Assembly (NCBI RefSeq): GCF_000497125.1
Contig: NC_090601.1
Span: forward strand, 186,001-250,000
DNA: 64,000 nt
Origin: Spironucleus salmonicida
Lineage: Eukaryota
Direction: 5' to 3'
Program-made: the position numbers and the translations under genes
The notes under the pieces: generated by a model
Database searches by the model: none
The model's input: the letters and a program-made list of their open reading frames with translations, nothing else
What the model was told of the DNA's origin: nothing
Part shown: piece by piece, positions 10,319 through 37,685 of the stretch
Numbering within the stretch: position 1 is the first letter of the stretch
Layout of the letters: every line of letters begins with the position of its first letter

Positions 10319-13300
10319 ATGGATAATTTAAAGATATCAGAGTTAACACGCACACCTACCTTATAGACTCATTATAAAAAATCCTTACTAAATAGATCTT
10401 CTAGATCAAAGTCAACATTAGATGCTCCTGTAGTATCAGCTGTTACTGCTTAAGCTATTTAACTACTTCATTAGTCGTTCAAAGATTTAGCAAAAAGTTA
10501 AAACCATATGCAATAACATATAGATTTCAAGATATTACGCTTCGATTTTGAGCTATTACCTTTGAAGTTAAAGTATTTGTAAAATAAAATTCAAAAACTT
10601 GAAAATATTGTGTCAAAGCTTTAAATTTAATAATAAAACAAATAATTTACTGTAAAAACTTAGCAATAGATATAATAATCATTAAATGAGTTAAGTGAAT
10701 TCAATGATAGTTTAAGAAAGTAAGTAAATGATCAATAATGTAAATTAAGTAGTAATAATAATATGAAAAATAATATTTAATAAGTACTTTTGAAACATAA
10801 TTTTGATAAATTCCATCAAAAATCAGAAATTTAAAGAGATTAATATGTTGATGAGATCGGTATCCAGTTAGATCGAATTTTAGATCAAAAGTATTTAATC
10901 AAATAACTTAATGATATATTTGATTAAAAATTTATAAATATGGATTAGGTTATTGAATATTCAAGTAAATTAAAAATTTCTGAGATTTCAAGACGGGAAA
11001 GTAACAAATCAAGACGAGAAAGTGGTAGTTTTGCTGAACAAGATAAAGGGTATTACCAATAATTATGTTAAATGACTAAACAAAACGAATCATTAATCAA
11101 TGAAAATGTGCTTAAAAATGATCTATTGAAAGATCTTAAGATTTAACTTTAAGGATAGATTAAACGGCATGAAAACTATTAGAAAAAGATAGAGATAGAA
11201 AAAGAGAAAGAAAATCAATATTTTGTTATTAAAATACAAGATTTAGAGAAAGAGATCTAATAATTAAGAGATAGAGATACTGAATTCTAATAATTATAAG
11301 CTGAGAAAGACAGATTAATATAACAATATGTTGTTGCATTTTCGGAAAATATAAATATTGTTGAAGAAGTAAAGAAGTAAAATGATGATATAGCATCAGC
11401 TATAAATTCTATTCATAATAATAGTGGTAATAAAAATGATAATTTTAGTGTACTAAATGAAATAAAATAGTAATTGGGACAGTTAGACGATTTCAAAATT
11501 ACATATAGTTAATAATAACAAAACTATAATCTATTAAATTAAGTGTCATAAACCTAATAGTATTTAATAGATAGTTTTAAATCATTATAGTAGTAAGAAA
11601 AATATAATGACAAAATACTTCTTTTATAAGAAAAAATAATAAATTATGAACTAACATTACATGATCATCAAAATAATAATTAATAATAGACGTAGGAAAT
11701 AGAGCATCTACGCATGATAAATAAGGAAGCGGGGTCCGAGCTGAAGAACTTCTAGTAGGTGCTGATGTTAAAAGAGTAGTCGCATTGCGCACTTCAGCAG
11801 GAAGTCGATGGACTTTAAGTCTAGCTGGAGGAGACCAAGTTATTCTATGAAGGGAAGCAGGCAACCGACAAGTCTATGCAAATGTCACAGTACGCCTTGC
11901 CGGTATCATTGCAAACTAGTGCCCTCGTCGATTCGCAGGTGAGTGTCTTACGCAACGAAACGGTGGAGCTCTAGCAAAAGGCTTAGGAGCTAGAAGCTCA
12001 TGTTGATAAGTAAACAGAGTAACTTGTAAAAGTTACTTAGGACAAGGATACCAGAGAGAGGTAGATATAAAATCTTGCCTCTGAAAATGCTTAGCTTACT
12101 GGGCAGTTAGAGGATTTGAGATACTCAGTGCTGAATGAGTCTAAAACTATTGAAGGCAATTAGAAAACGATTGGAAATTTAAGGGAGGAACTAGTTCATA
12201 CATAGGCAATGGTTGACAAACTAATTGCCGAAAAGCAATAAAATATCTCAGCATCTACAGAGTAGCGCATGAACGAAACTAAACTTATGGAGCATATCAA
12301 CTCACTAGTTACTGAATAGTAGCAAGGTGTCACGACGATTTAAACATTACAATAGGAAATAGAGCATCTACGCATGATAAATAAGGAAGCGGGGTCCGAG
12401 CTGAAGAACTTCTAGTAGGTGCTGATGTTAAAAGAGTAGTCGCATTGCGCACTTCAGCAGGAAGTCGATGGACTTTAAGTCTAGCTGGAGGAGACCAAGT
12501 TATTCTATGAAGGGAAGCAGGCAACCGACAAGTCTATGCAAATGTCACAGTACGCCTTGCCGGTATCATTGCAAACTAGTGCCCTCGTCGATTCGCAGGT
12601 GAGTGTCTTACGCAACGAAACGGTGGAGCTCTAGCAAAAGGCTTAGGAGCTAGAAGCTCATGTTGATAAGTAAACAGAGTAACTTGTAAAAGTTACTTAG
12701 GACAAGGATACCAGAGAGAGGTAGATATAAAATCTTGCCTCTGAAAATGCTTAGCTTACTGGGCAGTTAGAGGATTTGAGATACTCAGTGCTGAATGAGT
12801 CTAAAACTATTGAAGGCAATTAGAAAACGATTGGAAATTTAAGGGAGGAACTAGTTCATACATAGGCAATGGTTGACAAACTAATTGCCGAAAAGCAATA
12901 AAATATCTCAGCATCTACAGAGTAGCGCATGAACGAAACTAAACTTATGGAGCATATCAACTCACTAGTTACTGAATAGTAGCAAGGTGTCACGACGATT
13001 TAAACATTACAATAGGAAATAGAGCATCTACGCATGATAAATAAGGAAGCGGGGTCCGAGCTGAAGAACTTCTAGTAGGTGCTGATGTTAAAAGAGTAGT
13101 CGCATTGCGCACTTCAGCAGGAAGTCGATGGACTTTAAGTCTAGCTGGAGGAGACCAAGTTATTCTATGAAGGGAAGCAGGCAACCGACAAGTCTATGCA
13201 AATGTCACAGTACGCCTTGCCGGTATCATTGCAAACTAGTGCCCTCGTCGATTCGCAGGTGAGTGTCTTACGCAACGAAACGGTGGAGCTCTAGCAAAAG

Positions 13301-16300
13301 GCTTAGGAGCTAGAAGCTCATGTTGATAAGTAAACAGAGTAACTTGTAAAAGTTACTTAGGACAAGGATACCAGAGAGAGGTAGATATAAAATCTTGCCT
13401 CTGAAAATGCTTAGCTTACTGGGCAGTTAGAGGATTTGAGATACTCAGTGCTGAATGAGTCTAAAACTATTGAAGGCAATTAGAAAACGATTGGAAATTT
13501 AAGGGAGGAACTAGTTCATACATAGGCAATGGTTGACAAACTAATTGCCGAAAAGCAATAAAATATCTCAGCATCTACAGAGTAGCGCATGAACGAAACT
13601 AAACTTATGGAGCATATCAACTCACTAGTTACTGAATAGTAGCAAGGTGTCACGACGATTTAAACATTACAATAGGAAATAGAGCATCTACGCATGATAA
13701 ATAAGGAAGCGGGGTTCGAGCTGAAGAACTTCTAGTAGGTGCTGATGTTAAAAGAGTAGTCGCATTGCGCACTTCAGCAGGAAGTCGATGGACTTTAAGT
13801 CTAGCTGGAGGAGACCAAGTTATTCTATGAAGGGAAGCAGGCAACCGACAAGTCTATGCAAATGTCACAGTACGCCTTGCCGGTATCATTGCAAACTAGT
13901 GCCCTCGTCGATTCGCAGGTGAGTGTCTTACGCAACGAAACGGTGGAGCTCTAGCAAAAGGCTTAGGAGCTAGAAGCTCATGTTGATAAGTAAACAGAGT
14001 AACTTGTAAAAGTTACTTAGGACAAGGATACCAGAGAGAGGTAGATATAAAATCTTGCCTCTGAAAATGCTTAGCTTACTGGGCAGTTAGAGGATTTGAG
14101 ATACTCAGTGCTGAATGAGTCTAAAACTATTGAAGGCAATTAGAAAACGATTGGAAATTTAAGGGAGGAACTAGTTCATACATAGGCAATGGTTGACAAA
14201 CTAATTGCCGAAAAGCAATAAAATATCTCAGCATCTACAGAGTAGCGCATGAACGAAACTAAACTTATGGAGCATATCAACTCACTAGTTACTGAATAGT
14301 AGCAAGGTGTCACGACGATTTAAACATTACAATAGGAAATAGAGCATCTACGCATGATAAATAAGGAAGCGGGGTTCGAGCTGAAGAACTTCTAGTAGGT
14401 GCTGATGTTAAAAGAGTAGTCGCATTGCGCACTTCAGCAGGAAGTCGATGGACTTTAAGTCTAGCTGGAGGAGACCAAGTTATTCTATGAAGGGAAGCAG
14501 GCAACCGACAAGTCTATGCAAATGTCACAGTACGCCTTGCCGGTATCATTGCAAACTAGTGCCCTCGTCGATTCGCAGGTGAGTGTCTTACGCAACGAAA
14601 CGGTGGAGCTCTAGCAAAAGGCTTAGGAGCTAGAAGCTCATGTTGATAAGTAAACAGAGTAACTTGTAAAAGTTACTTAGGACAAGGATACCAGAGAGAG
14701 GTAGATATAAAATCTTGCCTCTGAAAATGCTTAGCTTACTGGGCAGTTAGAGGATTTGAGATACTCAGTGCTGAATGAGTCTAAAACTATTGAAGGCAAT
14801 TAGAAAACGATTGGAAATTTAAGGGAGGAACTAGTTCATACATAGGCAATGGTTGACAAACTAATTGCCGAAAAGCAATAAAATATCTCAGCATCTACAG
14901 AGTAGCGCATGAACGAAACTAAACTTATGGAGCATATCAACTCACTAGTTACTGAATAGTAGCAAGGTGTCACGACGATTTAAACATTACAATAGGAAAT
15001 AGAGCATCTACGCATGATAAATAAGGAAGCGGGGTTCGAGCTGAAGAACTTCTAGTAGGTGCTGATGTTAAAAGAGTAGTCGCATTGCGCACTTCAGCAG
15101 GAAGTCGATGGACTTTAAGTCTAGCTGGAGGAGACCAAGTTATTCTATGAAGGGAAGCAGGCAACCGACAAGTCTATGCAAATGTCACAGTACGCCTTGC
15201 CGGTATCATTGCAAACTAGTGCCCTCGTCGATTCGCAGGTGAGTGTCTTACGCAACGAAACGGTGGAGCTCTAGCAAAAGGCTTAGGAGCTAGAAGCTCA
15301 TGTTGATAAGTAAACAGAGTAACTTGTAAAAGTTACTTAGGACAAGGATACCAGAGAGAGGTAGATATAAAATCTTGCCTCTGAAAATGCTTAGCTTACT
15401 GGGCAGTTAGAGGATTTGAGATACTCAGTGCTGAATGAGTCTAAAACTATTGAAGGCAATTAGAAAACGATTGGAAATTTAAGGGAGGAACTAGTTCATA
15501 CATAGGCAATGGTTGACAAACTAATTGCCGAAAAGCAATAAAATATCTCAGCATCTACAGAGTAGCGCATGAACGAAACTAAACTTATGGAGCATATCAA
15601 CTCACTAGTTACTGAATAGTAGCAAGGTGTCACGACGATTTAAACATTACAATAGGAAATAGAGCATCTACGCATGATAAATAAGGAAGCGGGGTTCGAG
15701 CTGAAGAACTTCTAGTAGGTGCTGATGTTAAAAGAGTAGTCGCATTGCGCACTTCAGCAGGAAGTCGATGGACTTTAAGTCTAGCTGGAGGAGACCAAGT
15801 TATTCTATGAAGGGAAGCAGGCAACCGACAAGTCTATGCAAATGTCACAGTACGCCTTGCCGGTATCATTGCAAACTAGTGCCCTCGTCGATTCGCAGGT
15901 GAGTGTCTTACGCAACGAAACGGTGGAGCTCTAGCAAAAGGCTTAGGAGCTAGAAGATACAGTAGTATAGTTAAATAACTTAATATCAGATATTCAAAGC
16001 TAAAAATAATAGCTTAAATAACAATTGTTGTTATTTGAATCTGAAAATTTGAATCTAACAAAATAATTACTTAGATATCAAAATATAAAAGACACACAAC
16101 TACCGGATCATAGTAATATTACAGCTAGTTCATAGACTATTTTGACTTATGATTTGATTGATGTGATTGATTATCAAAATGATACACTTAAATTTGATCT
16201 CAGATAACAGTAACATTAAAACTAAGAAGTTACTAAAATACAGTTTAATCTGCAAACTTAGGTATAAGATCTTCGAGAATAAAATATTGAACTTAATATG

Positions 16301-17140
16301 TTACTAAAAAGATAGTAGGAAAAGAATTTAAAGTTATTGGATATTAATAAGTTTTTAGAAAAACAATTAGATAGCAACATTAATACAACTTAATAATCGA
16401 ACCTGTAAAATGATCAAAAACAGACTAATATAATTAAATCTTAATAGCATGTTAATGATTTAGAAAAATCTCTTAAAAATTTAAATAAAGATTGTAAAAT
16501 TTTCAAGTAAAAGCTTTCTGAAACATAAATTCAACTTGACAATAAAGATGAATTTTATTAAACCTAACTATAATAATAAGCAGAAGAATTATTACTAGCA
16601 CATAGAGAAAGAGATAATTCTATAAATACTCTTAAATAAGTGTAAAAAGACTTATAAGAAACAAAATAAGATCTAATAACACTAAAATAAAACTTAAACT
16701 CTAATACATTGTAAAACTTGGTGTAAGTATAAGAATAAGAAATTTTGCTACTTAAATAGTAGATGAATAATTAAAATAATTCTATGGTTATGTCTTAAAT
16801 AAGCAAATCTTAAACAATATTATCCGCTTTGGAAGACTCAATTATAGCACCTAAGTCTGTGATAGAAGATATACGTAGTATTAAATTATTAGTATTTGAT
16901 GTATTTTAGTTATCAGAAGATGAAAGAATTAGAGGATAATTAAAATAAGCCTGTGATAGGTTAGCAACAGTTATATTTGCGCTGACATTTAAATAAAATT
17001 GTGATTTTTTAGACTAAAGTGAAGATTTAGCATTTTCCAGGTTGCTTATTGAGAAACAGGAAGAAAGATAAAAGCGAATGAATTAAGGCAGCTTAAGTTA
17101 ACTAGAAGGAAGTTAAGTAAGTCTGAGTGGTTTCATTTGA
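10319..17140 (+). CDS. Large coiled-coil protein (~2273 aa) with ~6.5 internal 220-aa repeats
   Basis: ATG 10319 (MDNLKISELTRTPTLQ...). The frame stays open through the 660-bp array (EHLRMINKEAGSELKNFQQVLMLKEQ...) and ends ...QVSLSGFI TGA, followed immediately by AGTGA. Confidence 0.85.
11693..15956 (+). repeat. Coding tandem repeat, 660-bp unit, ~6.46 near-identical copies
   Basis: Identical lines recur at 11701, 12361, 13021, 13681, 14341, 15001 and 15661. The only difference seen is ggggtCcgag (copies 1-3) versus ggggtTcgag (copies 4-7). Confidence 0.98.
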
Positions 17141-17195
17141 GTGATGAGCGTTAAATTATTTATATATTATATCCTATTAATATCATATATATTTA

Positions 17196-21034: not shown

Positions 21035-22321
21035 TCACTCACTCTCATGTTACATCACACTAGATTCACTAATTTCGCCATTTTCGTCCTCCTATTTCTC
21101 TTCTTATATCAAAATTTTAGATTTTATCGCTTCTGCAATTTCGCAACCTAAGGCAAAGAGACTCTCTCTGCTTTTGTCACCCAGCAAGTACTTAAATTCA
21201 ACCTTACCAATAACGTTGCAATTAGCGCTTTCCAGATACGTTTCCATCATATTAAGGCTCTTTTACGCCCATCCGAACGCACCAAAAACGCACCCTGGTT
21301 TGTTGCCAATCAGTTGCAGCCCCCTTAGGTAGCGCAAAGCAGCCTCAGTTTTAACGCTCAGCCTGCTGTTAATCGTCGGACTCCCAAAAGCGATACCGCC
21401 TGCATCGTACGCGTGATATGCAACTTTTGTCAAATCGACAACGCGCAAATCGCAGATTTGTGACCGAACTCCGCAAGAGTACGCGCCTTCTGAAAGCGTT
21501 TTTGCTGCATTTTCAGTGGCGCCGTAAACTGAGTCGAAAACAATCAAAAGTTTCTGTTTCAAGTTCAGTCGATGTGCGTAAAGCGAGTATTCACGAAGGG
21601 GATAACCTAAAAAATCACCCCGCCAGGAGCAACCATGCGCAGTCAAAATGTACTCAATTTTAAGAGTTGCTGCGGCCTTTAGCGCAGTTCGGATCGGGGC
21701 ACGAAATGGACCCAGAATGTTTGCTGTATACTCTTTGAGTAAGTACATTAAGTGCTCTATGTCCTGGACCTGGTCTGCCCAACGGTCTGTTGAGGCGATA
21801 TGCTGCCCAAATCCATCGTTTGAGAAAAGAATATTGTTGGTCGCATCTAGAGTGAACATTGAATCTGGCCAATGCAGGTTTGGAACTAGCAAGAATCCAA
21901 GTGTTCTAGAGCCTGTACTAATGGTTTTTGAATTATCCACTAACTACCAGCTACAGGATTTTAACGACGGGTAGAGTATACAGAGGTGTTCTTTACAAAC
22001 CTTATTTGTTATTATAGTGGCATTGGGAAATTTTGGCATCACTAGAGGAAGTGCACTGGTATGATCTCCTTCAGCATGATTCACAATAATCTATTTAATC
22101 TAATCGAGGGGAATTACCGCACTAACTCTTTCTAAAAACTCTTCCCAAAAAGGTTCTTTCACACAATCAATAAGCGTAGGAATAGTATCCTTAATTAAAT
22201 AAGCATTATATGACGACCCTTCATCAGTATGATATCCATGAAATATTCTAATTGTCCAATCAATTGCACCTACCCAAAATACATTTGGCAACATCTCTGT
22301 GCTAGTAACAAAGTTAGTCAT
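21035..22321 (-). CDS. Flavodiiron protein (A-type flavoprotein, FprA-like), paralog 2, 428 aa
   Basis: WVGAIDWTIRIFHGY, GSSYNAYL, NHAEGDH, LHWPDSMFT, SNDGFGQH, TAHG, FDSVYGATE, GSPTIN and FGAFGW; ends AGT GAG TGA. Confidence 0.95.
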
Positions 22322-22423: not shown

Positions 22424-23434
22424 ATGTTTGGTTTTGATTTTGATGTTTTAACAGTGGAAGATTAATTAAATATTACAGGAGGATCGTGTATTGGAGCTAT
22501 TATATCAATATTATATTGCATAATAATATTTAAATATACTACAATAGTTCATTAGTAAGAAGAAATTGTAATTGAACGATGTGGCTAGTATAAAAAAGTT
22601 CTTTAGCCTGGTTGCCATTGTCTTCTTCCATTTTTTGATGCTAAGGTAGAATTTATTGCTGTTGACTATCACTTCAACATCAGCAACCATCACGTGCAGC
22701 AGTCGGTGACCGAGCGCAAGGGCCAAGATAAGTTCATTATTGACAAGCGCCTCCAGGTTCTGGATATGCCATTGCAGCCAGTTATTACCCGTGATAACGT
22801 CCAGCTTGAGGTGCACCCTATGGCGCTATACAAAGTAACGGACTCCATGCTCGCGGTTTACGAGGTACAAAATCTGTACTCCTCGATCTAAATTTTAATA
22901 TCAACTACACTTTCAGACATAATTGGAAGAATTACATTGGATGACACCCTCTGCTCTAGACAGGAGGTAAGACGCTAGGTATTCAACCAGATCCATTCTA
23001 CCATCTAAAACTGGGGAGCCCTATTGATCGAAGTTGACATCCTCGAAATAGATCCCCCTGAAAACATTGTTACAGCGATGGAAGCTCAGTTACTGGCAGA
23101 GCGTGAGAGAAGAGCTAAATTAGTAGAAGCTGACGCTGACCGCTAAATAAAGAAAATCATGGCTGACTCGCTTAGCCAGGAAAAGATACAGCTAGTAACA
23201 GGTGAAAGTCAGAGCATGGTCATGATAGCAGAAGCGGAAGCAGAAGGGCAAAAGGCCATAGGTATGGCGCAGGCTGAAGTAATTGGCATGCTGAGCGGAA
23301 AGGTGAAAGGATTTGATGTTGGTGATTTCCAGCTAAAAAACTACTGGCTCGATGCTATCGAAGCAGTGGCGATCAATAGTAGGAACGTGCAGTTGGTGAA
23401 GGGCGTAAGTATTCTATAGAAGCTTTCTGAGTGA
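22424..23434 (+). CDS. SPFH/band-7 (stomatin/QmcA-like) membrane protein, 336 aa, intact copy
   Basis: N-terminal hydrophobic segment, then IVHQQEEIVIERCGQYKKVLQPG, DMPLQPVITRDNV, IGRITLDDTLCSR, WGALLIEVDILEIDPP, AMEAQLLAERERRA and AEAEA repeats; ends GAG TGA. Confidence 0.9.
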
Positions 23435-25670
23435 CAATTTCTGTTAGTACTTCCGTTGCTTCGATTATAATGCCTTTATAATATTATATTTATCGAAATG
23501 AATTTCCTGTTTCCACTTCTTCATAATGATTACTACTGTCCGTGTTTCTCAATCCTGATGACATATACAAAATTGTATGATTTTCAAATATTTATATTCT
23601 ATGTATCACTTCTTCAGCACTGGCTTTGGGGCTCCGATCCCAGTTATTCTGAGACCATTCACTCCCAATGGCATGGCACGTTGCTGCAGTACTGGCTTTG
23701 CACTGCTGATACGTTTTATTTATGGGTTTCCCATATCAATCGTGTTAATCTCAGACTGTCTTTCGCACTCCTCAGCCTCTCGGGCGGCGATTATTTTATC
23801 TCGGTCTCTCTGCTCTATTTTGGTATCGTCTATACATACCAGATCTATATTCGATTCCAATATATCGAATACGTAGCTCTTTGATAGCTTAGAATATTTG
23901 AGGCAGAACGGGTTGTTTGCACAGCGGATCACCTACAGGTTTCCAGCCTTGGATACAAAGTTCTCAATCTAAGAAATGTTAGATATTTTGCATGATTCAC
24001 AATTTAAGCTACGAAGGGTGGAACGAACTGCTAGCGCAATCTCCAGATCTCTGGCGGCGTACGATATATCCAGCGCCACAAGGCATGGGAGTTTGGATAG
24101 GGTATCTTTCGATACATTCAGGAATTGGTTCTGGGAGAGGTCGAGTAATACTATCGAAGGAATAAATCCGAATTATGCAGGTACTAGAGACTTCAGCATA
24201 GACCTTTGGAGGTGAAGGTGCTTGATCGGTGCATGGAAGTCGTTGTTTCGGATGACCTTAACTGGATTTCCATTCAATATTAATGTTTCTAGAGCTGTAT
24301 GGTTTAATTATATGTTAAACGGATCAATGATGTCGTTTTCTGAGAGATCCACATACTTCACTTTCGGAAAATCCCTAAGATCGCTGAGAGAAGATAGCTA
24401 GTTGCCAGTGAGAATTAAAGTATGGACCTCCGATACTATGTGTTATATACCCGGGTCTACGCCTATGCTTGTCAATCCCAACCCAGATAAATCCAGAACA
24501 TAGTTCTAGATACTCCGTATTCTCAGGATTTGGGGGTTAATCCGACTAGTTAACTCTTAAATTTTTAGCTATCGCATCGGTTCTGTAATGATCATGTCGT
24601 TGATGAGGCCTAAGTCTGGAAGAAAATATAAGAAATCCTCAACCTTTTCGTTGTCTATTAGTAAGTGTGTTATCTTATTGAAATTCAGTAGTGACTCAGA
24701 ATTAAAACTAGCCTGCATAAGATTGACTATTTATATATGCGGTGGTAGATTAGTAATCGCACCAGAGTGAAGTTCCTTCAGATTATGCATGGTATTAGGA
24801 TTCAGTGCACATTCACAGTTCTGTATATCCAACGCAATCATTTTCTAGAGATTGATATTTTTAAGCTATCCTTGCGTTACATCTGAAAAAGGGATGCGGA
24901 GCTAAGTTATGCCGGTAAACTTGGCCAGGAACTACACCTAAAACTTATATACTTCTGGCGCGTGTATTCCAAATAGGTTTTCCTAGTTAAGAATTTATAA
25001 TGGTGGAGTAAGGACCCCCTGGTATTCCAAATTGACAGCATCGGCATGTTGGTCCAGAAACGGCTACAGAAAAGCATTAGATTGATGCAATTAGTCATGG
25101 CAACAATTGTATTACATCACACCAATAGATGTAATTCCTCTGTTTTCTATGAGACTTGTAATGGTACTAACATGGATACCATTTATCATCTTAATGTTCT
25201 TGAAATATCTTAGAATTTAGGTAAACACGTTATACTCCTGGTTTGGAAACAGGTTGCCATTATAATTTAAAACTTCCAAGCTATTTTTAGTCTGTTGAGA
25301 AATCCCTGAAAATATAGCCATAAACGAAAACTGGTTGAAAGATAAATCCAATACTCGCAGAGTAGGGCAATTTACTTTTATCTTCACAAGTTTATTCTTA
25401 GATAAATTAAGCTCCAGTAAAGCACTAGATTCAAACGAAAATGTTTGCATATCATTATATGATAGGTCGATGCAGTGTATTTCATGCAACTAGCTAAGTA
25501 TTTCCCCAATATTGTCTGGATAAGTAGGACACATATTGTGAAGATCTAAAGCGTGCTATACTGAGTATACAAGTCTATCGGCCACAGATTCTTCGAAATT
25601 TGTCGTGGAAAGAACTGGAGATCGTACATAGGTCTCCATACCGCCTTGCTCGCCAAATTGATGCAATATA
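22666..25670. repeat. Left arm of a ~3.0-kb inverted duplication (partner 34681-37685)
   Basis: Position p pairs with 60351-p throughout (e.g. 22694/37657, 25489/34862). Mismatches seen only at 25015/35336 and 25661/34690. Confidence 0.97.
23606..25670 (-). pseudogene. 5'-truncated copy of the LRR gene 33413-36745; frame intact, could start at internal ATG 25639 or upstream ATG 25771
   Basis: Reverse complement of 34681-36745, lacking the first ~423 codons of the full gene. Confidence 0.75.
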
Positions 25671-25745
25671 AATTTATAGATCTTTATTTGGTCTGTTAAA
25701 CAAATATAATAATAGTTTATAACCAATTTATATAAAAATAAAATC

Positions 25746-27986
25746 TCAATCTTTGGATTAAGCATCTTCATTATCGAGCTTGTTACTATCTAGTAGTGCT
25801 ATTTCGTCTTCTGGAATACTAACTTTATTATTCTTAAATAATCTTGGACCCAGGAGGAATATTGCTAATAAAACAATTACTGCGATGACAACACAAGACA
25901 ATAGAATTATACCAATTATCATGCCTATACCAGTATCAATTTCCTCTTACAGTTATCTAGACAATCTAGGATCAACTCTTTCCTAACAAATAAAACTAAC
26001 ACCAGATTTAACTCTATACCATCCTAATTCGCAACCATATGGAACACAGTTATTATCCACAAATCTAGAAGTAATATGGGTATCAACATCAGTATCACAA
26101 ATATAACCAAATGTATTTATTTCTGCACTGATATCAATAGCTTTTTACACAAATATTGCTAATCCATCAGGACCTTACCAATTTCCATATATAGGATGTA
26201 TATCATACAATACTTTATCCACTTGAATAGAACGATATTCAAGTGGAATACCAGATTCTTCTAACGAATCAAAGCTAAATATACTTTAATGAGCAAAACG
26301 CTAAAATCCATCATGTGGAATATATAAAGATTTTAAAAAATTAAAATCATCTTCTGAAATACTAGGTGACTTGAGGTTTTTAATACTATCTTCAAAGGTA
26401 TTAGAATCCATAACAACTCCACCCGCAAATGAAGATACATCAAATCGATCTGAAGAACGTTTATATCCACCAACACCAACAGACTTAACATTTTTAAGTT
26501 AAACTAAATGTTTAGCAAAACATGAACATGTAGAGCCACAAAGCGCATCAGTAATAAGAATAATATTCTCAGGCGAATAGTTAATACCTTTAAATGCATA
26601 AATTTTATCTAAAATATCTTTGAAAGAAGGTTCTGCATCATCATCAGAAGCATAATTAATCGTGAAGTTATTTTTGGTTGGTGTTTCATACCATGTTAAA
26701 TTTTTAACATATTCTGGTTAAAATTAAAAATATGTATAAACTTCTCCAGTAATCCAATCAACACGATTGCTATCTTCAAATTCTGTTTCAGCTTACATAA
26801 GCAATTACTAAATTCTTGATTTTCTAATAGAATATCTTCCATAAATGGGATATTACTCAGGGAACATCATAAATGCAGTAAGATGTCCTAAACTAACCCA
26901 ACCACCACCATTACCTACTAATGATAGTATTAATTTTCCTTATTAAGTCTATTTAATAGTCTGCATTACATTAAATAAATCTTTTAGTGCTTAAACATTG
27001 TCAGGAGGACTAAAAGATTCAATAGATAATACTAAATCAGATTGGTAAGAATATAAAGTGAAAAACTCTGGAGACTACTAAATGATTGAAAATTAATCAT
27101 TTTATGACTAAGGGTGAGGTTATTTATAATCTAATTTCTTTAAAATATGCTCATACGTTTTATCGGAAATAATATGATTTGATGATAATTTTTTAACCAG
27201 TGACATTTCATATAAATTTTGAGCATCATTACTATCATTGATGACTTTATCTGTTGTTATAACATAGTAAATACTATAACTTGTACCATCTAATAGTTAA
27301 ACTGTCATCTTTTCATCAACAGTTTCAGGTAAGTTATAAACTTTTAAGTTTTGATAATACATATCATTCCCTATGAAAGAATTAAAGCAGCCATGATCGC
27401 TTTTACTAGAATAACAATATTTTCTTGCTTATTACATTAGATATTCTTCAACTTCTATTCCATTAATTTTGAATATTCTTTTACCCAACATTTACTCAAA
27501 ATTTTAGGTAAAGTCTAATTTTTTGTAACCATCATGAATACTCTAATCTTTAAATGGGAGTTTCTCAGTATACCAATAGCCATCATCTTTTTAGGTAATA
27601 ACCAAAGGAAGGCGTTTCTTGAAATTAGAAAAGAAAGAACTTTTTACATATAAGGTATGAGGATCTTTTAATTATAAAAATAAGGCACTTAATGCGGCAA
27701 AATAATCATAAGCAGAAGCATTTTAAGCCGCTTGATATTTGCTGCGAATAATAGCTAGTTTAGCATCAATATCTACTGCTAAATGTTAATATTCATATGG
27801 AGGATTTTTAGCAATATCTTAAAAACCGTGTAATTAGATCAATTCTTCCACTGTTTTTTAATTTTGTTCAAATATATCTTTGGTAAGTAAAGGATATTTT
27901 ATACATTCAGCAGCAGATTTAATAGGATATACCGCATTTATATCAGGCATACGACAAAGATCAATAGCGTATACTAAAATGATCAT
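25746..27986 (-). CDS. Membrane-anchored peptidase S41 (tail-specific/CPAF-like), 746 aa
   Basis: Short hydrophobic N-terminus MIILVYAID; LKDPHTLY; ILSLVGNGGGWV (DLRGNGGG-like); ITDALCGSTCSCF (catalytic-Ser region); SVGVGG; C-terminal TM IGMIIGIILLSCVVIAVIVLLAIFLL with a short tail. Confidence 0.8.
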
Positions 27987-28093
27987 TTTAAAAATAAATC
28001 ACTTAATCTGATTAATATTTATGGAATATATTAATATTACTTGTTTTAGTGATTTATTTTATGAATATGTTCTATAATACATTACAATGATTT

Positions 28094-28840
28094 TCATTCT
28101 ACGTTCATTAGTAAACTGCCATTTTAACATAAAAATGTTATATTATTTAAATCAGTTAGTGCTTAAAAGCAATCCATCATATTGGAAAGATTAGGCTTGA
28201 AATTATTTTTTAACCTAAGGGAGAAATGACCTATAATAATATTTTAAACATTAAGCCTGTCAACTAATTATCTTACAATTGTGTCATTTGAATGTTTAAA
28301 TTATTTTGCTTTTTCCAAATTAGTAAAAGTGCATTCACATATTAAATAATCTATAGGTACTGATTCAAGTATTTCCAAATTTGAATAATCTCCATCTGAT
28401 AGTATATAAATTAACTTATTTTTAGACGTTTCAATCCTAATACCATAACATTCAACCACATGAAATAGTTCTATAGTACTTATTTTGTAGTCTATATTCT
28501 ATAATATTGTATCAATCTGAATAATATTAATATTTACCTCTAAGTTCATTAATGAAAAAAAATTTGTAATAAATTATTAACTACCAGAAGGGGCATAGAT
28601 GATAGGAATTTGAAAATTATTATTAATATGATTAAGTATAATTTATGGTAACCCTGATATATGATCCATATGAATATGAGAGATGAAAATTGTATCTATT
28701 GATATATTGTTTAAACTGATAGCGGCACCCTCAGATGCATCAAATAGTAAGTTACTATTATTAAATTCTAAAAAATAAGATTATGTGTTTTAATCAGCTG
28801 ATACAAATCCTCCAGCTATACCTAAACATGTAAACCTCAT
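28094..28840 (-). CDS. Short RNase Z-like metallo-beta-lactamase hydrolase, 248 aa
   Basis: MRFTCLGIAGG, LFDASEG, FISHIHMDHISGL (HxHxDH), IYAPSG, FHVVECYG, LSD, CECTF, HSN and GHFSLR. Confidence 0.85.
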
Positions 28841-28956
28841 TTTAAGCAAAATTTATTATAGTATAAATATACCTCTTTATTATTTCATTGTTTGAAAAAA
28901 TAAAATTAACTGTATGCTAAAATATCATTTTAAAATTATAAAGTAGATTTCTAAAC

Positions 28957-30516
28957 TCAGAATATAAATCTTAGTACACTTAATATTGATACTAATTCAT
29001 TGTCTCTATAAGAATCTAGTATATATTTATTAAAAATATTATTATGATCTAGATTTAAAGTTAAAAATCTATTTTATAAAAGAAATTAGATTTGATTCCT
29101 TTTTTCATCTTAGTTATTATTATAAAAGCAAAAATCATCTTAATATGCTTCCGAAACGGTAATTGGAAATGTATGTTCAATGCAATCAATACCAATACAT
29201 TAATAAAATTTAATGTATTTTATAGATGGAAATATTAAACCAATTGATGTTACTTTATTAATAAATATAACTTTATTAAAAATACATCCATTCAAACAAT
29301 CTTTCTCCATAAAATTATAATTCTTATATAATTCTCCATTCAACTATTAATATTCATTTACTTAAATAAGGCCTCCTTAAACTGTGCATTAACATAATAT
29401 TAGTTTATCTATATCACCTTAAAGCTTAATACTTTAAGATTAATAAATTTTTAATTAATAACAGTTAATTACTTATATTTATACATCGGTTGATTCACTT
29501 ATTTCTATATATTAACAATCATTAAATGTTGCACTGATTAATTAATTAGAATTTAACTTTACTTCTACTACATTACTAAATGATACTTTACGTAATAAAT
29601 TGTTCTATAAATTTAATTACTCTAAGTACGTGAAAGTTTAATTTGGTAAAAACTCTAAAAGACGACTATTTTCTAAATTTAGTGTCTATAATTTTTCTAA
29701 AATTGGAAAATTATTGATATCTAAGTTTTACTCTGATTCGATAATTTCGTCATTTCTAGTCCATGGTATTGAAACCATATAACGATACGGATGCTCATAT
29801 TCTAAAACTGAATTATTAGTTCCATTCCCACTGAGCGAAAAATATCTTAAATTCTACATATTTTTCATGAAACTAAAAGAAAAAATATAATTTTAACTTA
29901 GATCTAAATACTCTAAATCTAACTACTATAAGAATTAACATTATGTCAGATTACAATTAATGAGTTTTACTATTTTCAGATTTTTATTAATAATGTCAAA
30001 CTGATGTGATGCAATTGGACAATTTATTATAATAACTTTCTGTAGTAAGGGATAAGTTGGGAATGTATCAAAGTTAGAGTCAATAGCATAAAAGCTAATC
30101 AAATTTGGAAATTATAAATTTTGCAACTCTGAAGTACTACAATCGGATATACTTAAATATAGTATAGAATTTGTATATATTGGCTATAATAAAGTCACAT
30201 TTTTCAAAGTAAGCTAGCTGTTTAATATTTTTTCTAAAAATAAAGAATTCTAAAGGATAATATTATTTAATACAATCGGACGATTGAATTTTATCAAATA
30301 ATCTTCTATATATTCATAGCCCTCATTTTAAAATAGAAAGTTATAGATTAAATCATAATCTACAAAATTAAGTTATTCATTAAATAAAAAAACTGGTATG
30401 TTTTTCTTAAATAATTTGACAATATTAGCTATTAAAACATTATTAGCTAAATATCCATTGGCATCCTTTAAATTTTACACCTAAATAATTTAGGTTATTT
30501 CAATATAATTTTACAT
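28957..30516 (-). CDS. Leucine-rich repeat protein, ~519 aa
   Basis: Open frame from ATG 30516 with LxxLxLxxN repeats such as LEYLDLSQNYIFSFSFMKNMQNLRYFSLSGN. Confidence 0.7.
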
Positions 30517-30558
30517 TTCAATAATATTATATATAATATAAATAATTGATAAATACTC

Positions 30559-33240
30559 TCATAAAATTCTCTATAGTTTTTTACCCTTTTTACTTTTACC
30601 TTTCTTTCCCTTGCCTTGTTTAGGAACTGTAAAGTCAAACATTTATACATTATATTCTGTTATCTTATTAATTGAAGTAGCTCCATTAGCTACTTTCTCC
30701 ATTCGCTTTATACTTGGGGCTAGTTAATCAAAATCAAATTATATAGACATTTTTATAGGAACTTATCCCATTAGAGCTTTATTAATTGAATCTTTATATT
30801 TAATTTTTAATGTTTCTATTAACTTATTAGCTAGTATCTATTAGTTTTTAATGAAATCAATTTTAGAATCTTCCTATTCAATAGCCGTTTTAAGATTGTC
30901 CAGTTCTAGTTAATGTAACTAAATTTGTTCCAAATTTTTATTATTTTATTCTACAAGTGCTTTTTCTGTTTCATCAAATTTAGTTTAAGTTTATAAAATA
31001 GACTATTTGTTATCCTCTTATTATTAAGTGTATTTCTATTCTAACGATACACATTTTAAATCTGCTTCCTTTATTAAATCATTGACTTATTCTGTCTACT
31101 AAATTTATTAATTACTTTTAAGCTATAAACTCTGATTTTATCTATAATTTTAATCATTACAATCATCTTTTTATGTCAAAATAGATGCAATATGATTTTA
31201 TACAATTGAGATCGACTTCATTAGAAAGTCTAACTCCTCTCTACATATTGGCAAACGTTCAGACTAACTTTTCATGTCTATAATACGTTACTTAAGTCTT
31301 TTTGGTGCATTCATAGTAATTTTAGATTTATTTTCAGATAATTTTTACTATAATAATTATATTGAAAAATGTGCAACCTAATTGCCTCTTAAATTAGTTT
31401 AAAGCATTCCATAGCTTTTAATGAGAAATGTACATCCTTTTTAACCTCCAACTTCACCCACAAAATTTTCTTCAAAGTTTAGTGAAATCATATTAGAGCA
31501 AACTGAAATAGAAAATGCTAATGCCACAAAACCAGCATCAGAAATTGAACACTTTGAAAAATCTAAATGTGTAATAATTGAGTTAACTTCATCCATTTTA
31601 TCAAGTTTAGGTATGAAATTTGGTTATGTTTAAAATTTTCGTAGACATATCTAATTAAAAATTAACGTTTCAGCAATTAATATTGCACCATTGTTTTGCA
31701 ATTTATTTCCACTCAAGTTTAAATAATGAATTTAACAACACGATTTTAATAACTATGAGACATATGATATTCCATTAACGGATATATTATTGTATCCTAA
31801 AGAAAGATGAGTAATACCAGAATAAATAAGACCTGATGCTGAGGACTATGATATAAAATTATCATCATGTGACTCTGTTAATGTTGAACCTAAAAATTCA
31901 GCCATTACCGTATTCGTAGGAAATGTCTATGTTTACTGAGGATCCGAAATTATTGCTGTTTCAAGATCGACTTAGGGTGTTTCATCTCCAAATGAAGTCT
32001 CAGCATCATCTTCTTAGACATTTTCTTACAAAAATTATTAAAAATTAAGCGTATCTTCTAGTTTATTAGTTTATTAAGAATGGCTAAAATTTCTTTTTGG
32101 TATTTTTTTTAGAATTGTGGATGATAATACACGCCCTTTATGATTGATGACAAATATTTTCTTATCACCCTATTCTTCTTATTATTTATTAACAATTTTT
32201 TCAAAAAAATCTGTCATTAAATCACAAAGTGATTCTGTAGCATTGACAGAATTATTAAGATCAAATTATGACTTTAACTAATCCCTATTATTTATTATAG
32301 GATGAGAGAGAGTTGCAGCTATTATAGCAACTCCATCATCATCTAGTGCACAATTATTTAAGCTTAATTTTTTTAAACTTTAATTTTATGATAATCCATA
32401 AGATAATGCTTTAGCACCTTCAACACCTAAAGGATTATCATCTAATGATAATTCGACCAAACCACATTATAAGTTTGATAAAATGTTACTTAATATTGGA
32501 ATAGAAAGAAACGTGATTCCATTACCATTTAAGGTCAATTTTTAAAGACCAATATTTTATGTTAACCCTCGAAAAATTGAAGTTGCACCTGTATTTTATA
32601 GGAGATTATACGAGATATCTAATGCAGTTAGTGTTTAATTTTGAGATAGCATAATTCCAAGTTGAGACGGACCTTCGTTAGATACACCTATACCGGCTAA
32701 GTTGTGAGACAATCCTAAATATTTTAAAGTTTAATTATGAGCTAAATTTTTGGCTATAAAAGAAATAGACTCAGATGTGAGCTAATTTATTAAAGCTGTA
32801 TTAATATTCTTTCTAACTTTTTAGAAAATATACCCAGAAGGATACCCTAATTCAACCGCTTCTAATCCTGACCCTTCTTTTAATATTTCTCCAAGTGCCA
32901 TAGCACCTTCATTAGTAATACCACAACATCCAACATTAATACGTTTCATTGTATAATGTCGCTCGGCATACTTTAATAATGCCATAAACCCTACATCTTT
33001 AATAGCATTTTCAAATAAATCCAATGTAGCTAGTTCTACTCCTTCCAATCTTTTTGATAACTATAATGTTGAGGTTGGTCCTAATCTTGCTCTTCGCAAC
33101 TATAGCTAATCTGTTGGAGATTTACGAGATATTTCTAATAAATATTCAACACCTTCTCTTGTAGGTTGTTCATCTGCATCTTTAGCGATAGCTAAATAAA
33201 TATCTTTAATGAAATCTGTTTATAGCCAGGGTTGAGTCAT
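30559..33240 (-). CDS. RNI-like leucine-rich repeat protein with C-terminal coiled coil, ~893 aa
   Basis: MTQPWLQTDF... with repeats LATLDLFENAIKDVG, INVGCCGITNEGAMALGEIL and LSLDDNPLGVEGAKALS; lysine-rich tail GKSKKGKKLQRIL*. Confidence 0.85.
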
Positions 33241-33412
33241 TTAAAGAAAAAATAATGCATCGTTTTTGATATATTATTATAGAATTGAAAATTTAATTAT
33301 ATTTTAACAAAAATAACCGCACTATAAATAATATTATTTTAAATACATATTATTAATATAGTTTATTATTATAAATAGTACTATTTATTATATAACAATA
33401 ATAAATTAAAAA

Positions 33413-36400
33413 ATGACTATAAATATAAATAATTTCTTCTCTGAGGTTTCATCTGACATTCTGCGGTTAAAAGCCTAAGATACAAAGTCAGATTATTTTT
33501 TATAGACAGAGGTACCTTTAGAGGTAAATACTGAAATTTTTAGAGCAGTTAGATGCAGACTTAATGTTTAACCAACCCCTAGCAAATATTCATATTTTGA
33601 TGGAAATTAAATAAGTGAAGGTTAATGCGGGAATGCAGAGCTATTAAGTCTATCCATGAACCCTTTAATTTTAATGAAACCTTCATAAACCATAAAAGCG
33701 CTATGCCTATCATTTACTAAAATCACAAGGTTAGATTTATCAGATTATGAGAATTTATAAACTTTTTCTGTAAAGGGCTGCTCATATTTGTAATCTATCA
33801 ATTGGTCTAGTTTTACTGGATTTGCTGATATACAATAAACTAGAATTTCTTTATTACCATCAACATAAAATATACGTTATGATAAAATTGACGACCGTTT
33901 ACAATATTCTATATTAAATCATAATAAATCTACATTAGAGTAAAATTTTGAGCTTATTCAAAAATATAATGTTTCATTATTAGTAAATATTTAATCTAAA
34001 CTAAAACTATTTTTATTATAAAACAAATTACTTAGTGATATTTATGACGTATAAAATGATATTTCTGATATTAATCTTATATAAAATTAAAGAAAATCTA
34101 ATCAATAATATATTTCTGCCACTGAGTTACAAGTAAACTAAGATTTATTTTTAAATAAAACCAATCTTCTTACCAACTTAAATGTATGCTTATAGTAAAT
34201 ATAAAAGTTTTATTAAGACATTTAATTTGAGTATTTTGTTAAAAATTTACCAATATTATCATATTTTAAAACTTTAAATATCAATGTATAGTAGTTAGAT
34301 AGATATACATACTCTATTGAAAATAATAATTTAACAGATATATCGATTAAATTATGTTTCGAGGATGTAGAAATTGCTAACGGAAAAATGATGTATGATC
34401 CTACAGAATTCCAAAATTACATAATAAATAATTCCAAAACCATATATGTTAAAATATAGAATCAAAACATATTAAAATTTATTGCGGAAGGATATTAGTA
34501 TAATTTCTCTACGTCTGTAACATAGTATGTTTTATCAGACAACTAAATGTAATTTTAAAGTTATGTTTAATGTAAATAAATAGCTATATAAAAATCTTAA
34601 GAGTATATATTAGTTCCAGAAATAATAAAAGTAGACGATTAACTTTTAAATTATGATAGTATATTACTTAGGTAATAGTCTATATTGCAGCAATTTGGCG
34701 AGCAAGGCGGTATGGAGACCTATGTACGATCTCCAGTTCTTTCCACGACAAATTTCGAAGAATCTGTGGCCGATAGACTTGTATACTCAGTATAGCACGC
34801 TTTAGATCTTCACAATATGTGTCCTACTTATCCAGACAATATTGGGGAAATACTTAGCTAGTTGCATGAAATACACTGCATCGACCTATCATATAATGAT
34901 ATGCAAACATTTTCGTTTGAATCTAGTGCTTTACTGGAGCTTAATTTATCTAAGAATAAACTTGTGAAGATAAAAGTAAATTGCCCTACTCTGCGAGTAT
35001 TGGATTTATCTTTCAACCAGTTTTCGTTTATGGCTATATTTTCAGGGATTTCTCAACAGACTAAAAATAGCTTGGAAGTTTTAAATTATAATGGCAACCT
35101 GTTTCCAAACCAGGAGTATAACGTGTTTACCTAAATTCTAAGATATTTCAAGAACATTAAGATGATAAATGGTATCCATGTTAGTACCATTACAAGTCTC
35201 ATAGAAAACAGAGGAATTACATCTATTGGTGTGATGTAATACAATTGTTGCCATGACTAATTGCATCAATCTAATGCTTTTCTGTAGCCGTTTCTGGACC
35301 AACATGCCGATGCTGTCAATTTGGAATACCAGGGGTTCCTTACTCCACCATTATAAATTCTTAACTAGGAAAACCTATTTGGAATACACGCGCCAGAAGT
35401 ATATAAGTTTTAGGTGTAGTTCCTGGCCAAGTTTACCGGCATAACTTAGCTCCGCATCCCTTTTTCAGATGTAACGCAAGGATAGCTTAAAAATATCAAT
35501 CTCTAGAAAATGATTGCGTTGGATATACAGAACTGTGAATGTGCACTGAATCCTAATACCATGCATAATCTGAAGGAACTTCACTCTGGTGCGATTACTA
35601 ATCTACCACCGCATATATAAATAGTCAATCTTATGCAGGCTAGTTTTAATTCTGAGTCACTACTGAATTTCAATAAGATAACACACTTACTAATAGACAA
35701 CGAAAAGGTTGAGGATTTCTTATATTTTCTTCCAGACTTAGGCCTCATCAACGACATGATCATTACAGAACCGATGCGATAGCTAAAAATTTAAGAGTTA
35801 ACTAGTCGGATTAACCCCCAAATCCTGAGAATACGGAGTATCTAGAACTATGTTCTGGATTTATCTGGGTTGGGATTGACAAGCATAGGCGTAGACCCGG
35901 GTATATAACACATAGTATCGGAGGTCCATACTTTAATTCTCACTGGCAACTAGCTATCTTCTCTCAGCGATCTTAGGGATTTTCCGAAAGTGAAGTATGT
36001 GGATCTCTCAGAAAACGACATCATTGATCCGTTTAACATATAATTAAACCATACAGCTCTAGAAACATTAATATTGAATGGAAATCCAGTTAAGGTCATC
36101 CGAAACAACGACTTCCATGCACCGATCAAGCACCTTCACCTCCAAAGGTCTATGCTGAAGTCTCTAGTACCTGCATAATTCGGATTTATTCCTTCGATAG
36201 TATTACTCGACCTCTCCCAGAACCAATTCCTGAATGTATCGAAAGATACCCTATCCAAACTCCCATGCCTTGTGGCGCTGGATATATCGTACGCCGCCAG
36301 AGATCTGGAGATTGCGCTAGCAGTTCGTTCCACCCTTCGTAGCTTAAATTGTGAATCATGCAAAATATCTAACATTTCTTAGATTGAGAACTTTGTATCC

Positions 36401-36745
36401 AAGGCTGGAAACCTGTAGGTGATCCGCTGTGCAAACAACCCGTTCTGCCTCAAATATTCTAAGCTATCAAAGAGCTACGTATTCGATATATTGGAATCGA
36501 ATATAGATCTGGTATGTATAGACGATACCAAAATAGAGCAGAGAGACCGAGATAAAATAATCGCCGCCCGAGAGGCTGAGGAGTGCGAAAGACAGTCTGA
36601 GATTAACACGATTGATATGGGAAACCCATAAATAAAACGTATCAGCAGTGCAAAGCCAGTACTGCAGCAACGTGCCATGCCATTGGGAGTGAATGGTCTC
36701 AGAATAACTGGGATCGGAGCCCCAAAGCCAGTGCTGAAGAAGTGA
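33413..36745 (+). CDS. Leucine-rich repeat protein, ~1110 aa, full-length copy
   Basis: ATG 33413, with the frame continuous into the duplicated arm (ILQQFGEQGGMETY...IHCIDLSYNDM...LELNLSKNKL...LRVLDLSFNQF...TLILTGNQLSSL); ends AAG TGA. Confidence 0.85.
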
Positions 36746-37685
36746 TACATAGAATATAAATATTTGAAAATCATACAATTTTGTATATGTCATCAGGATT
36801 GAGAAACACGGACAGTAGTAATCATTATGAAGAAGTGGAAACAGGAAATTCATTTCGATAAATATAATATTATAAAGGCATTATAATCGAAGCAACGGAA
36901 GTACTAACAGAAATTGTCACTCAGAAAGCTTCTATAGAATACTTACGCCCTTCACCAACTGCACGTTCCTACTATTGATCGCCACTGCTTCGATAGCATC
37001 GAGCCAGTAGTTTTTTAGCTGGAAATCACCAACATCAAATCCTTTCACCTTTCCGCTCAGCATGCCAATTACTTCAGCCTGCGCCATACCTATGGCCTTT
37101 TGCCCTTCTGCTTCCGCTTCTGCTATCATGACCATGCTCTGACTTTCACCTGTTACTAGCTGTATCTTTTCCTGGCTAAGCGAGTCAGCCATGATTTTCT
37201 TTATTTAGCGGTCAGCGTCAGCTTCTACTAATTTAGCTCTTCTCTCACGCTCTGCCAGTAACTGAGCTTCCATCGCTGTAACAATGTTTTCAGGGGGATC
37301 TATTTCGAGGATGTCAACTTCGATCAATAGGGCTCCCCAGTTTTAGATGGTAGAATGGATCTGGTTGAATACCTAGCGTCTTACCTCCTGTCTAGAGCAG
37401 AGGGTGTCATCCAATGTAATTCTTCCAATTATGTCTGAAAGTGTAGTTGATATTAAAATTTAGATCGAGGAGTACAGATTTTGTACCTCGTAAACCGCGA
37501 GCATGGAGTCCGTTACTTTGTATAGCGCCATAGGGTGCACCTCAAGCTGGACGTTATCACGGGTAATAACTGGCTGCAATGGCATATCCAGAACCTGGAG
37601 GCGCTTGTCAATAATGAACTTATCTTGGCCCTTGCGCTCGGTCACCGACTGCTGCACGTGATGGTTGCTGATGTTGAAGTGATAG
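34681..37685. repeat. Right arm of the ~3.0-kb inverted duplication (partner 22666-25670)
   Basis: Reverse complement of the left arm; the ORF track shows a mirror-image set of identical peptides. Confidence 0.97.
36917..37685 (-). pseudogene. 5'-truncated copy of the SPFH gene lacking the membrane anchor; first in-frame ATG at 37585
   Basis: Matches 22666-23434. Upstream of 37685 the frame is unrelated and reaches TGA at 37901-37903 with no ATG. Confidence 0.75.

What the first reader, a model, noticed from the sequence alone, without database searches (positions are those of the whole stretch)
11693..37685. GC content steps up sharply at the edges of the multicopy tracts, inside single ORFs
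Seen (hand counts of G+C on 60-nt lines): coiled-coil gene 9/60 at 11581 and 11/60 at 15961 versus 27/60 inside the array at 11761; SPFH gene 9/60 at 22501 (unique) versus 30/60 at 22741 (arm); LRR gene 11/60 at 34561 versus 26/60 at 34741. A fresh duplication would not change composition, so copies that are both near-identical and GC-shifted imply old duplicates kept alike by ongoing conversion with a GC bias. GC-biased gene conversion is an established mechanism; applying it here is inference. If right, GC-rich islands serve as a map of ectopic recombination in this genome.
Basis: partly seen in the sequence, partly recalled or inferred. Interest (0 to 1): 0.7.

Follow-up and report, generated by a model that had tools for sequence, protein, structure and literature searches.

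The report
GC-rich duplicated tracts inside protist genes
In an AT-rich diplomonad protist, the parts of three genes that exist as near-identical copies are much richer in G and C right up to the edge of the copy. This most likely comes from a known process, copies correcting each other with a bias towards G and C, though the bias itself was not shown here.

Summary
All 7 hand counts are exact. A 660-nt tandem array (11693-15956) and a 3005-nt inverted duplication (22666-25670 / 34681-37685) are 40-42% GC against 24-29% around them. Inside three genes GC3 steps from 0.14-0.19 to 0.43-0.53 at the repeat edge. G-ending codons rise as much as C-ending ones, unlike the published highly expressed set. 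Contig depths fit real repeats. About 1 Mb of the same contig shows the same association (45% vs 30%). Best reading: GC-biased ectopic gene conversion between long-lived copies (0.62). Limits: polarised substitutions did not demonstrate the bias, and copy age was not dated. 'GC islands map ectopic recombination' is too strong: the GC-rich flavoprotein gene inside the span, and 5 of 5 other islands tested, have no near-identical copy. The duplicate-GC association is published for Spironucleus salmonicida (PMC9509377), the mechanism is known from primate palindromes, and this scan noted it before on other DNA of this genome. Added here: each arm carries one intact and one truncated gene, and the array holds two GC strata. 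New member of a known kind; interest 0.38.

The parts
10319..17140 (+). Coiled-coil-type, Gln/Glu-rich gene (code 6) that contains the tandem array; unique parts GC3 0.18-0.19
   Evidence: no credible Pfam domain; 'coiled-coil' is judged from composition, not tested; an upstream Met at 10118 is possible
11693..15956 (+). In-frame tandem array, 660-nt (220-aa) unit: part A (about 300 nt, 7 copies, GC3 0.64) and part B (about 360 nt, 6 copies, GC3 0.37); one C/T site splits copies 1-3 from 4-7
   Evidence: contig depth 72-92 vs 9-13 beside it
22666..25670 (+). Inverted-repeat arm A, 40% GC: 3' part of the intact SPFH gene and a 5'-truncated LRR copy
   Evidence: contig depth 24-30 vs 11-13
34681..37685 (-). 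Inverted-repeat arm B: 3' part of the intact LRR gene and a 5'-truncated SPFH copy
   Evidence: junction at 34680 seen in contigs of 3 of 4 runs
22424..23434 (+). Intact SPFH/Band 7 gene; first 81 codons unique (GC3 0.14), rest in arm A (GC3 0.53)
   Evidence: PF01145 from residue 41; homolog P0002 aligns from residue 13 across the edge, 48% identical
33413..36745 (+). Intact LRR gene; first 423 codons unique (GC3 0.19), rest in arm B (GC3 0.43, rising from 0.37 to 0.48 towards the 3' end)
   Evidence: PF13855
23606..25670 (-). 5'-truncated copy of the LRR gene (upstream DNA not homologous)
36917..37685 (-). 5'-truncated copy of the SPFH gene (upstream DNA not homologous, AT-rich)
   Evidence: database protein P0001 is the 222-aa form from the internal Met
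25671..34680 (.). Single-copy spacer of 9010 nt, 25% GC: four whole genes (GC3 0.17 each) and the LRR 5' part
21035..22321 (-). Counter-example: flavodiiron-type (ODP beta-lactamase + flavodoxin) gene, 42% GC, GC3 0.40, no near-identical copy; its tandem paralog at 19348-20631 has GC3 0.18

Best explanation
The array and the two arms are long-lived duplicates that keep recombining with each other. Each new mutation in one copy makes a mismatch during homologous repair. Repair copies one version over the other and favours G/C, so AT-ward mutations are mostly erased and GC-ward ones spread to all copies. Conversion needs homology, so the effect stops at the edge of the copy, even in mid-gene. 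Shown: near-identity, base-level edge coincidence, symmetric G and C gain, contig-wide association. Inferred: age, ongoing conversion and the bias itself. Likely history (inferred): the 3-kb block was duplicated in inverted orientation together with, or followed by, inversion of the 9-kb spacer. That left SPFH intact only in arm A and LRR intact only in arm B, so neither arm can be lost whole. In the array, part A was probably a two-copy repeat first, and unequal exchange later multiplied A+B.
For: Edge coincidence in the window. A free step fit lands within 5 codons of the repeat edge at 11 of 16 gene-internal edges with a GC3 step of at least 0.15 (22 edges examined). In 606 kb of C6: duplicated 0.467 vs other 0.284 GC; 63 of 68 edges higher inside, 49 of 68 above the 95th percentile of a null (both arms of a pair are counted, so edges are not independent). 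A further 390 kb gives 0.441 vs 0.335. Four-fold third bases go from A .42 C .07 G .09 T .43 to A .29 C .20 G .22 T .29, whereas the highly expressed set computed from Table 2 of PMC1805757 has G .02. Non-ORF DNA is 0.419 vs 0.236 (crude ORF calls). In an old pair of 14.6-kb genes, homogenised bins are GC3-rich and diverged bins stay near 0.2 (rho 0.82). Array strata: A 64/100, B 44/120, unique 156/850 (A vs B p 8e-5, B vs unique p 1e-5). Duplicates with no step exist (5 of 68 edges), as expected of young copies. Two MutS genes are present. PMC8516963 (passages) reports no NHEJ or alternative end joining in parasitic diplomonads, so break repair is by homology. The most isolated new mutations in arms run 7 GC-to-AT vs 2 AT-to-GC, which fits an unchanged AT-biased mutation rate (p 0.18).
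Against: Polarisation did not show the bias. Singletons in 3-5-copy families are balanced (302/261, 189/167, 53/59 GC-to-AT / AT-to-GC). Changes shared by sister arms are 93-99 GC-to-AT vs 67-72 AT-to-GC; at third positions they are 28 vs 26, in non-coding columns 31 vs 16 (p 0.04 towards AT). Recent vs pair-shared is not significant (p 0.28-0.87). Four identity thresholds were tried after seeing the data. Single-copy GC islands are common: 52 of 830 locally unique windows reach 40% GC, and 6 of 6 checked genome-wide have no near-identical copy. No outgroup DNA dates the copies. The flanks are not homologous, so age rests on the GC shift itself, which is partly circular.
Confidence: 0.62

Rival explanations
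1. Repeats have a different mutation spectrum (for example from repair synthesis or chromatin state). Conversion only homogenises the copies and is unbiased.
For: Regional mutational bias was the reading offered in PMC1805757 (section 15 and passages). Singleton changes in multicopy families imply an equilibrium GC of 0.41-0.49, close to the present value. Single-copy islands have the same G and C gain.
Against: As the filter for recent, isolated mutations is tightened, implied GC falls from 0.45 to 0.35, 0.32 and 0.20, towards background (n down to 9, not significant). A chromatin domain would not be expected to stop within a few codons of the homology edge.
Confidence: 0.16
2. GC islands come first (for example at allelic recombination or break hot spots). 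GC-rich DNA is then preferentially duplicated, or its duplicates last longer.
For: Single-copy islands exist, including one 345 nt from arm A (28 of 188 locally unique genes have a GC3 peak of at least 0.5). GC varies inside arms. At one edge the rise begins about 50 codons outside the arm. PMC8981503 (passages) proposes this as a co-factor for primate palindromes.
Against: It does not explain why both ends of a copy fall within a few codons of the GC step at most edges, or why GC3 follows identity within one old duplicate. It can act together with the best explanation.
Confidence: 0.13
3. Selection on codon usage or expression makes these gene parts GC-rich.
For: Highly expressed genes in this genus centre on GC3 about 0.4 (PMC1805757, passages). 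GC1 also rises in the repeats.
Against: The step is inside single reading frames. G-ending four-fold codons, nearly absent from the highly expressed set (0.02), rise to 0.22. Non-coding DNA in repeats is raised too.
Confidence: 0.04
4. Assembly artefact, or foreign GC-rich DNA inserted into genes.
For: The copies are almost perfectly identical, and one of the two arm mismatches is absent from contigs.
Against: Short-read contigs break at the same edges, with about 2x and about 7x depth (the DNA runs may be the source sample, and depth is only a rough guide). The SPFH domain and a homolog run across the edge. The GC-rich parts still use TAA/TAG as sense codons in frame.
Confidence: 0.02

Closest known systems
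[quoted passage not shown]
   Same: Arms over 99% identical, richer in GC than flanks; the same paper cites rDNA, histone families and segmental duplications as other cases.
   Different: Here the arms are 1-16 kb, the gap is about 15 GC points (primates 4-5), edges cut through genes, and tandem arrays show it too. There the bias was shown by outgroup polarisation; here it was not.
GC-rich duplicated regions of Spironucleus salmonicida (PMC9509377, parts 1-2 of 3 read; PMC1805757, sections 12 and 15 and passages; PMC2874811, passages)
   Same: Published: duplicated regions 44.7% GC vs 30.7%; sharp GC shifts and high-GC3 genes left unexplained in 2007; sister-species orthologs of the highest-GC3 genes have lower GC3.
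   Different: In the text I read, these papers do not report base-level coincidence with repeat edges inside genes and do not name biased conversion as the cause; gene conversion is mentioned only for expansion of surface-protein families.
Inversions with inverted partial-gene duplications at breakpoints in Drosophila (PMC1885836, passages)
   Same: Inverted duplicates of ancestrally unique, partial genes flank an intervening segment.
   Different: Those duplicates decay (about 88% identity, up to 1.9 kb) and are ascribed to staggered breaks with end joining. Here the arms stay 99.9% identical, and end joining is reported absent in the group.

Membership tests
GC-biased non-allelic gene conversion tracts | Near-identical non-allelic copies | tested here: met
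   Arms 3003/3005 identical; array copies differ at one site; depth fits real repeats
GC-biased non-allelic gene conversion tracts | GC raised in copies over flanks, ending at the homology edge | tested here: met
GC-biased non-allelic gene conversion tracts | Effect on synonymous and non-coding sites, not matching translational preference | tested here: met
   against Table 2 of PMC1805757; the non-coding stretch inside this arm is only 171 nt (0.27 vs 0.11-0.24 in 10 others)
GC-biased non-allelic gene conversion tracts | Derived bases fixed across copies are GC-richer than ancestral bases | tested here: inconclusive
   Within-genome polarisation only; no significant excess, and the non-coding class leans to AT
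GC-biased non-allelic gene conversion tracts | Copies older than their identity implies (dated with orthologs) | not testable with these tools
   No relatives held for G000; indirect support from another gene pair; weak in-register flank likeness right of the array, 5 of 750 placements score as high at the best of 3 lengths
GC-biased non-allelic gene conversion tracts | Mismatch-repair machinery present | tested here: met
   Two PF00488 matches over the cut-off; MutL and the direction of repair not tested
Inversion with duplicated breakpoint | Inverted partial-gene duplicates with non-homologous flanks | tested here: met
   Flank scores 56 and 44 vs null mean 49, 95th percentile 65; the two new junction flanks are non-coding, 75 and 306 nt from neighbouring genes
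Inversion with duplicated breakpoint | Ancestral gene order seen in an outgroup | not testable with these tools
   No related genome held
Inversion with duplicated breakpoint | End-joining machinery (Ku) for the staggered-break route | tested here: inconclusive
   No PF02735 match (absence is not proven); reported absent in metamonads (PMC8516963, passages)

The most novel reading that the evidence does not exclude
In a lineage that repairs breaks only by homology, template-switch inversions leave inverted duplicates that are locked in place because each arm carries one intact gene. These act as strong GC pumps over a large share of the chromosome (387 of 996 kb sampled were duplicated), rewriting synonymous sites and moving Gln codons from the reassigned TAA/TAG back to CAA/CAG. 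The single-copy GC islands would be orphaned arms or allelic conversion hot spots. This would explain the GC mosaic left unexplained since 2007 and give a within-gene clock for recombination history.
Probability: 0.25. Interest if true: 0.62.

Novelty: new member of a known kind. Interest (0 to 1): 0.38.

Why it matters
If true, it supplies a mechanism for the sharp GC and GC3 mosaic of this fish parasite's genome, which PMC1805757 could not explain by mutation or selection. It also gives an unusually clean test bed: the same reading frame holds converted and unconverted codons side by side. In practice, high GC3 here should not be read as lateral transfer or high expression, and truncated arm copies can be annotated as genes from an internal Met. 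The mechanism itself is established elsewhere, and the association is already in print.

Tried and rejected
(1) Polarising substitutions inside the genome. A subtelomeric repeat family was uninformative (4 and 9 informative singletons). Multicopy families gave balanced or non-significant counts at four thresholds. (2) The idea that single-copy islands are ramps and repeat edges are steps: inconclusive. A step fitted best in 14 of 16 repeat edges but also in 10 of 12 island sides; support was stronger at repeat edges (p 0.002) but is confounded by step size. (3) Orphan-arm test: 7 of 28 island genes have another local protein match, all 24-40% identical, so no decayed partner was seen; islands are not significantly closer to duplicates (p 0.10) or richer in spacers (p 0.20). 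(4) Split-gene arrangement: seen after the fact in 6 of 6 inverted pairs with two gene-crossed edges (12 pairs examined). One pair is ambiguous (called a further crossing ORF) and three crossings are under 180 nt. A test on a further 390 kb had no simple pair with two crossed edges in the rows I saw (output cut, and 58), so it is not replicated. (5) Flank homology for the array: left flank none, right flank weak; gapped alignments no better than shuffles. (6) Expression: no RNA holder listed on record. Guessed-RNA contigs of one study start at 22619 and leave the AT-rich SPFH 5' part uncovered, as they do other AT-rich stretches; not used as evidence, and depths cannot rank genes. Both orientations of the spacer could not be tested with contigs. 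(7) Pfam hits on the array protein are artefacts of repetition (0 stretches pass). (8) A two-copy, single-event model needs a bias of 0.78-0.91 to hold four-fold GC at 0.42-0.67. With more copies per cell or repeated rounds a weaker bias suffices, so I infer no unusual bias strength. (9) Paper searches for an explicit link between biased conversion and this genome listed none; only listings were seen for papers not named above, the library lacks most subscription journals, and no supplements were read. Own-scan look-ups near the window and by words returned nothing.

Full report
Setting. The window is G000:C6:186001-250000. Long intron-free frames open under code 6 (TAA/TAG = Gln). I read the organism as a diplomonad, most likely Spironucleus salmonicida. 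That label rests on the code, the genome's make-up and earlier scan notes, not on a named sequence match.

Observation. The seven hand counts are exact, though the lines chosen are more extreme than typical (medians 24 vs 15 of 60). The tracts are a 660-nt in-frame tandem array at 11693-15956 and 3005-nt inverted arms at 22666-25670 and 34681-37685. They are 40-42% GC against 24-29%. Free change-point fits at the four edges that cut intact genes fall 4 to 60 nt from the repeat edge, and the fitted interval includes the edge each time. GC3 rises from 0.14-0.19 to 0.43-0.53. CAA/CAG replaces TAA/TAG significantly in SPFH and LRR but not in the array. Contigs from two DNA runs break at the same edges with about 7-fold and 2-fold depth; these runs may be the source sample, and depth is a rough guide only.

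Anatomy. The arms hold the convergent 3' parts of an SPFH gene and an LRR gene. SPFH is whole only at arm A: the Pfam domain and homolog P0002 both run across the edge. LRR is whole only at arm B. The other copy of each starts abruptly in unrelated DNA. The two new junction flanks are non-coding. This is the layout of an inverted duplication coupled to inversion of the 9-kb spacer; the order of events is inference. Of 13 repeat pairs tested, 12 had unrelated flanks at both ends, so partial duplications are the common type in this stretch. In the array the 7-copy part A has GC3 0.64, the 6-copy part B 0.37 and the unique parts 0.18. I read this as A having been multicopy longer.

Wider test. 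In 606 kb of C6 (first 43 kb and one AT microsatellite left out), DNA with a local copy of at least 95% identity is 0.467 GC vs 0.284. Of 82 segment edges, 14 were dropped for touching another repeat; 63 of the remaining 68 are higher inside. A further 390 kb gave 0.441 vs 0.335. With my own rough gene calls, fully duplicated genes have median GC3 0.59 (76 of 80 at least 0.35) and locally unique genes 0.23 (24 of 188). A step fitted freely to GC3 lands within 5 codons of the repeat edge at 11 of 16 edges with a clear step, of 22 examined. In an old pair of 14.6-kb genes, GC3 follows identity between the copies (rho 0.82, 46 bins that are not independent).

Selection and mutation. Highly expressed genes in the published table avoid G at four-fold sites (0.02); the repeats go from 0.09 to 0.22 with C rising in parallel. 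Non-ORF DNA is raised too. Translational selection is therefore unlikely. The direct test of bias failed to decide. Isolated new differences in arms are 7 GC-to-AT vs 2 AT-to-GC (implied GC 0.20, p 0.18). Changes shared by sister arms are 28 vs 26 at third positions (implied 0.52, present 0.54), 93 vs 67 overall and 31 vs 16 in non-coding columns. The third-position pattern is what biased conversion near equilibrium predicts; the non-coding one is not; no contrast between the classes is significant; and thresholds were chosen after the fact. Pair-shared changes also include those older than the pair.

Against the 'map' claim. The flavoprotein gene at 21035-22321 is 42% GC with the same G and C gain, yet its only DNA matches elsewhere are short and 69-78% identical and its contig depth is single-copy. 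Five of five other islands tested have no second match (the search skips common words, so this is not proof of rarity). Many duplicated windows are under 40% GC (98 of 318; 172 of 399). GC therefore marks past or allelic processes as well as current duplicates.

Mechanism. Best: GC-biased non-allelic conversion between long-lived copies (0.62). Rivals: altered mutation in repeats (0.16), GC-first duplication (0.13, compatible with the best reading), selection (0.04), artefact (0.02). Two MutS genes are present, no Ku match was found, and PMC8516963 (passages) reports homologous recombination as the likely sole break-repair route in parasitic diplomonads. This makes frequent conversion plausible but does not show bias.

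Comparison with what is known. It works like arm-to-arm biased conversion in primate palindromes (PMC8981503, passages). It meets the compositional features but not yet the polarisation test, so membership is probable rather than proven. The association of duplication with high GC is printed for S. salmonicida (PMC9509377). The sharp shifts were described and left open in 2007 (PMC1805757), and lower GC3 in sister-species orthologs was reported in 2010 (PMC2874811, passages). Passages of PMC3916229 added nothing on cause. My searches listed no paper that links repeat edges to biased conversion in this genome; supplements were not read. This scan has recorded the same pattern at other places in this genome (47 notes fit the look-up, 8 shown); these are unchecked notes, not independent support.

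Verdict. A real and sharp feature, a new instance of a known kind. The additions are the split-gene layout (post hoc, not replicated), the two strata in the array, the codon test against selection, and the single-copy counter-examples. Interest 0.38.

Noticed in passing
window 684-6947 +: Dynein heavy chain gene that stops right after the first AAA domain (2087 aa; DHC_N1, DHC_N2, AAA_6 positions 1-229 of 327); the rest of the motor is not in this frame. May be a split or truncated dynein.
   Followed up: no
window 19348-22321 -: Tandem pair of flavodiiron-type genes, about 40% identical, one AT-rich (GC3 0.18) and one GC-rich (0.40, rising from 0.25 at the 5' end); a paralog on C1 is AT-rich (0.15-0.25).
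   Followed up: partly
window 39641-42577 -: Cysteine-rich (CxxC) protein of 978 aa with a C-terminal transmembrane-like stretch and a basic tail, resembling the published cysteine-rich membrane proteins; GC3 0.23, no Pfam hit.
   Followed up: no
window 11736 and the same place in each unit: One C/T site (Ser/Phe) splits the array into copies 1-3 and 4-7, a block pattern expected from unequal exchange.
   Followed up: partly
window 25015: One of the two arm mismatches is not seen in contigs of four runs; possibly an assembly error or a minor allele.
   Followed up: partly
G000:C6:1-43000 (L004-L008): Contig end: about 3.1 kb of short tandem repeat at 50% GC, then a mosaic array of roughly 345-nt and 172-nt units at 87-95% identity and 37-47% GC, with long reverse-strand frames.
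   Followed up: partly
G000:C6:43000-650000: Inverted repeats of 1.2-16.5 kb with mostly over 99% identical arms are dense (about 15 pairs); arm GC ranges from 0.34 to 0.69 and several arms have internal GC steps.
   Followed up: partly
G000:C6:634584-636023, 480390-483955, 301127-302851, 463940-466825, 581800-583300: GC-rich stretches (local GC3 up to 0.8-0.9 in the four profiled) with no second DNA match in the genome; the peak at about 481430 sits where two convergent genes end.
   Followed up: partly
G000:C6:539813-540447 and 1031421-1032065: Two pure A/T microsatellites of about 600 nt, 96-98% alike.
   Followed up: no
G000:C6:990563-1002295: An 11.7-kb tandem repeat at 67% GC inside one 12.5-kb reading frame, with GC dropping to 0.20-0.34 at its edges: a second array of the kind described here.
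   Followed up: no
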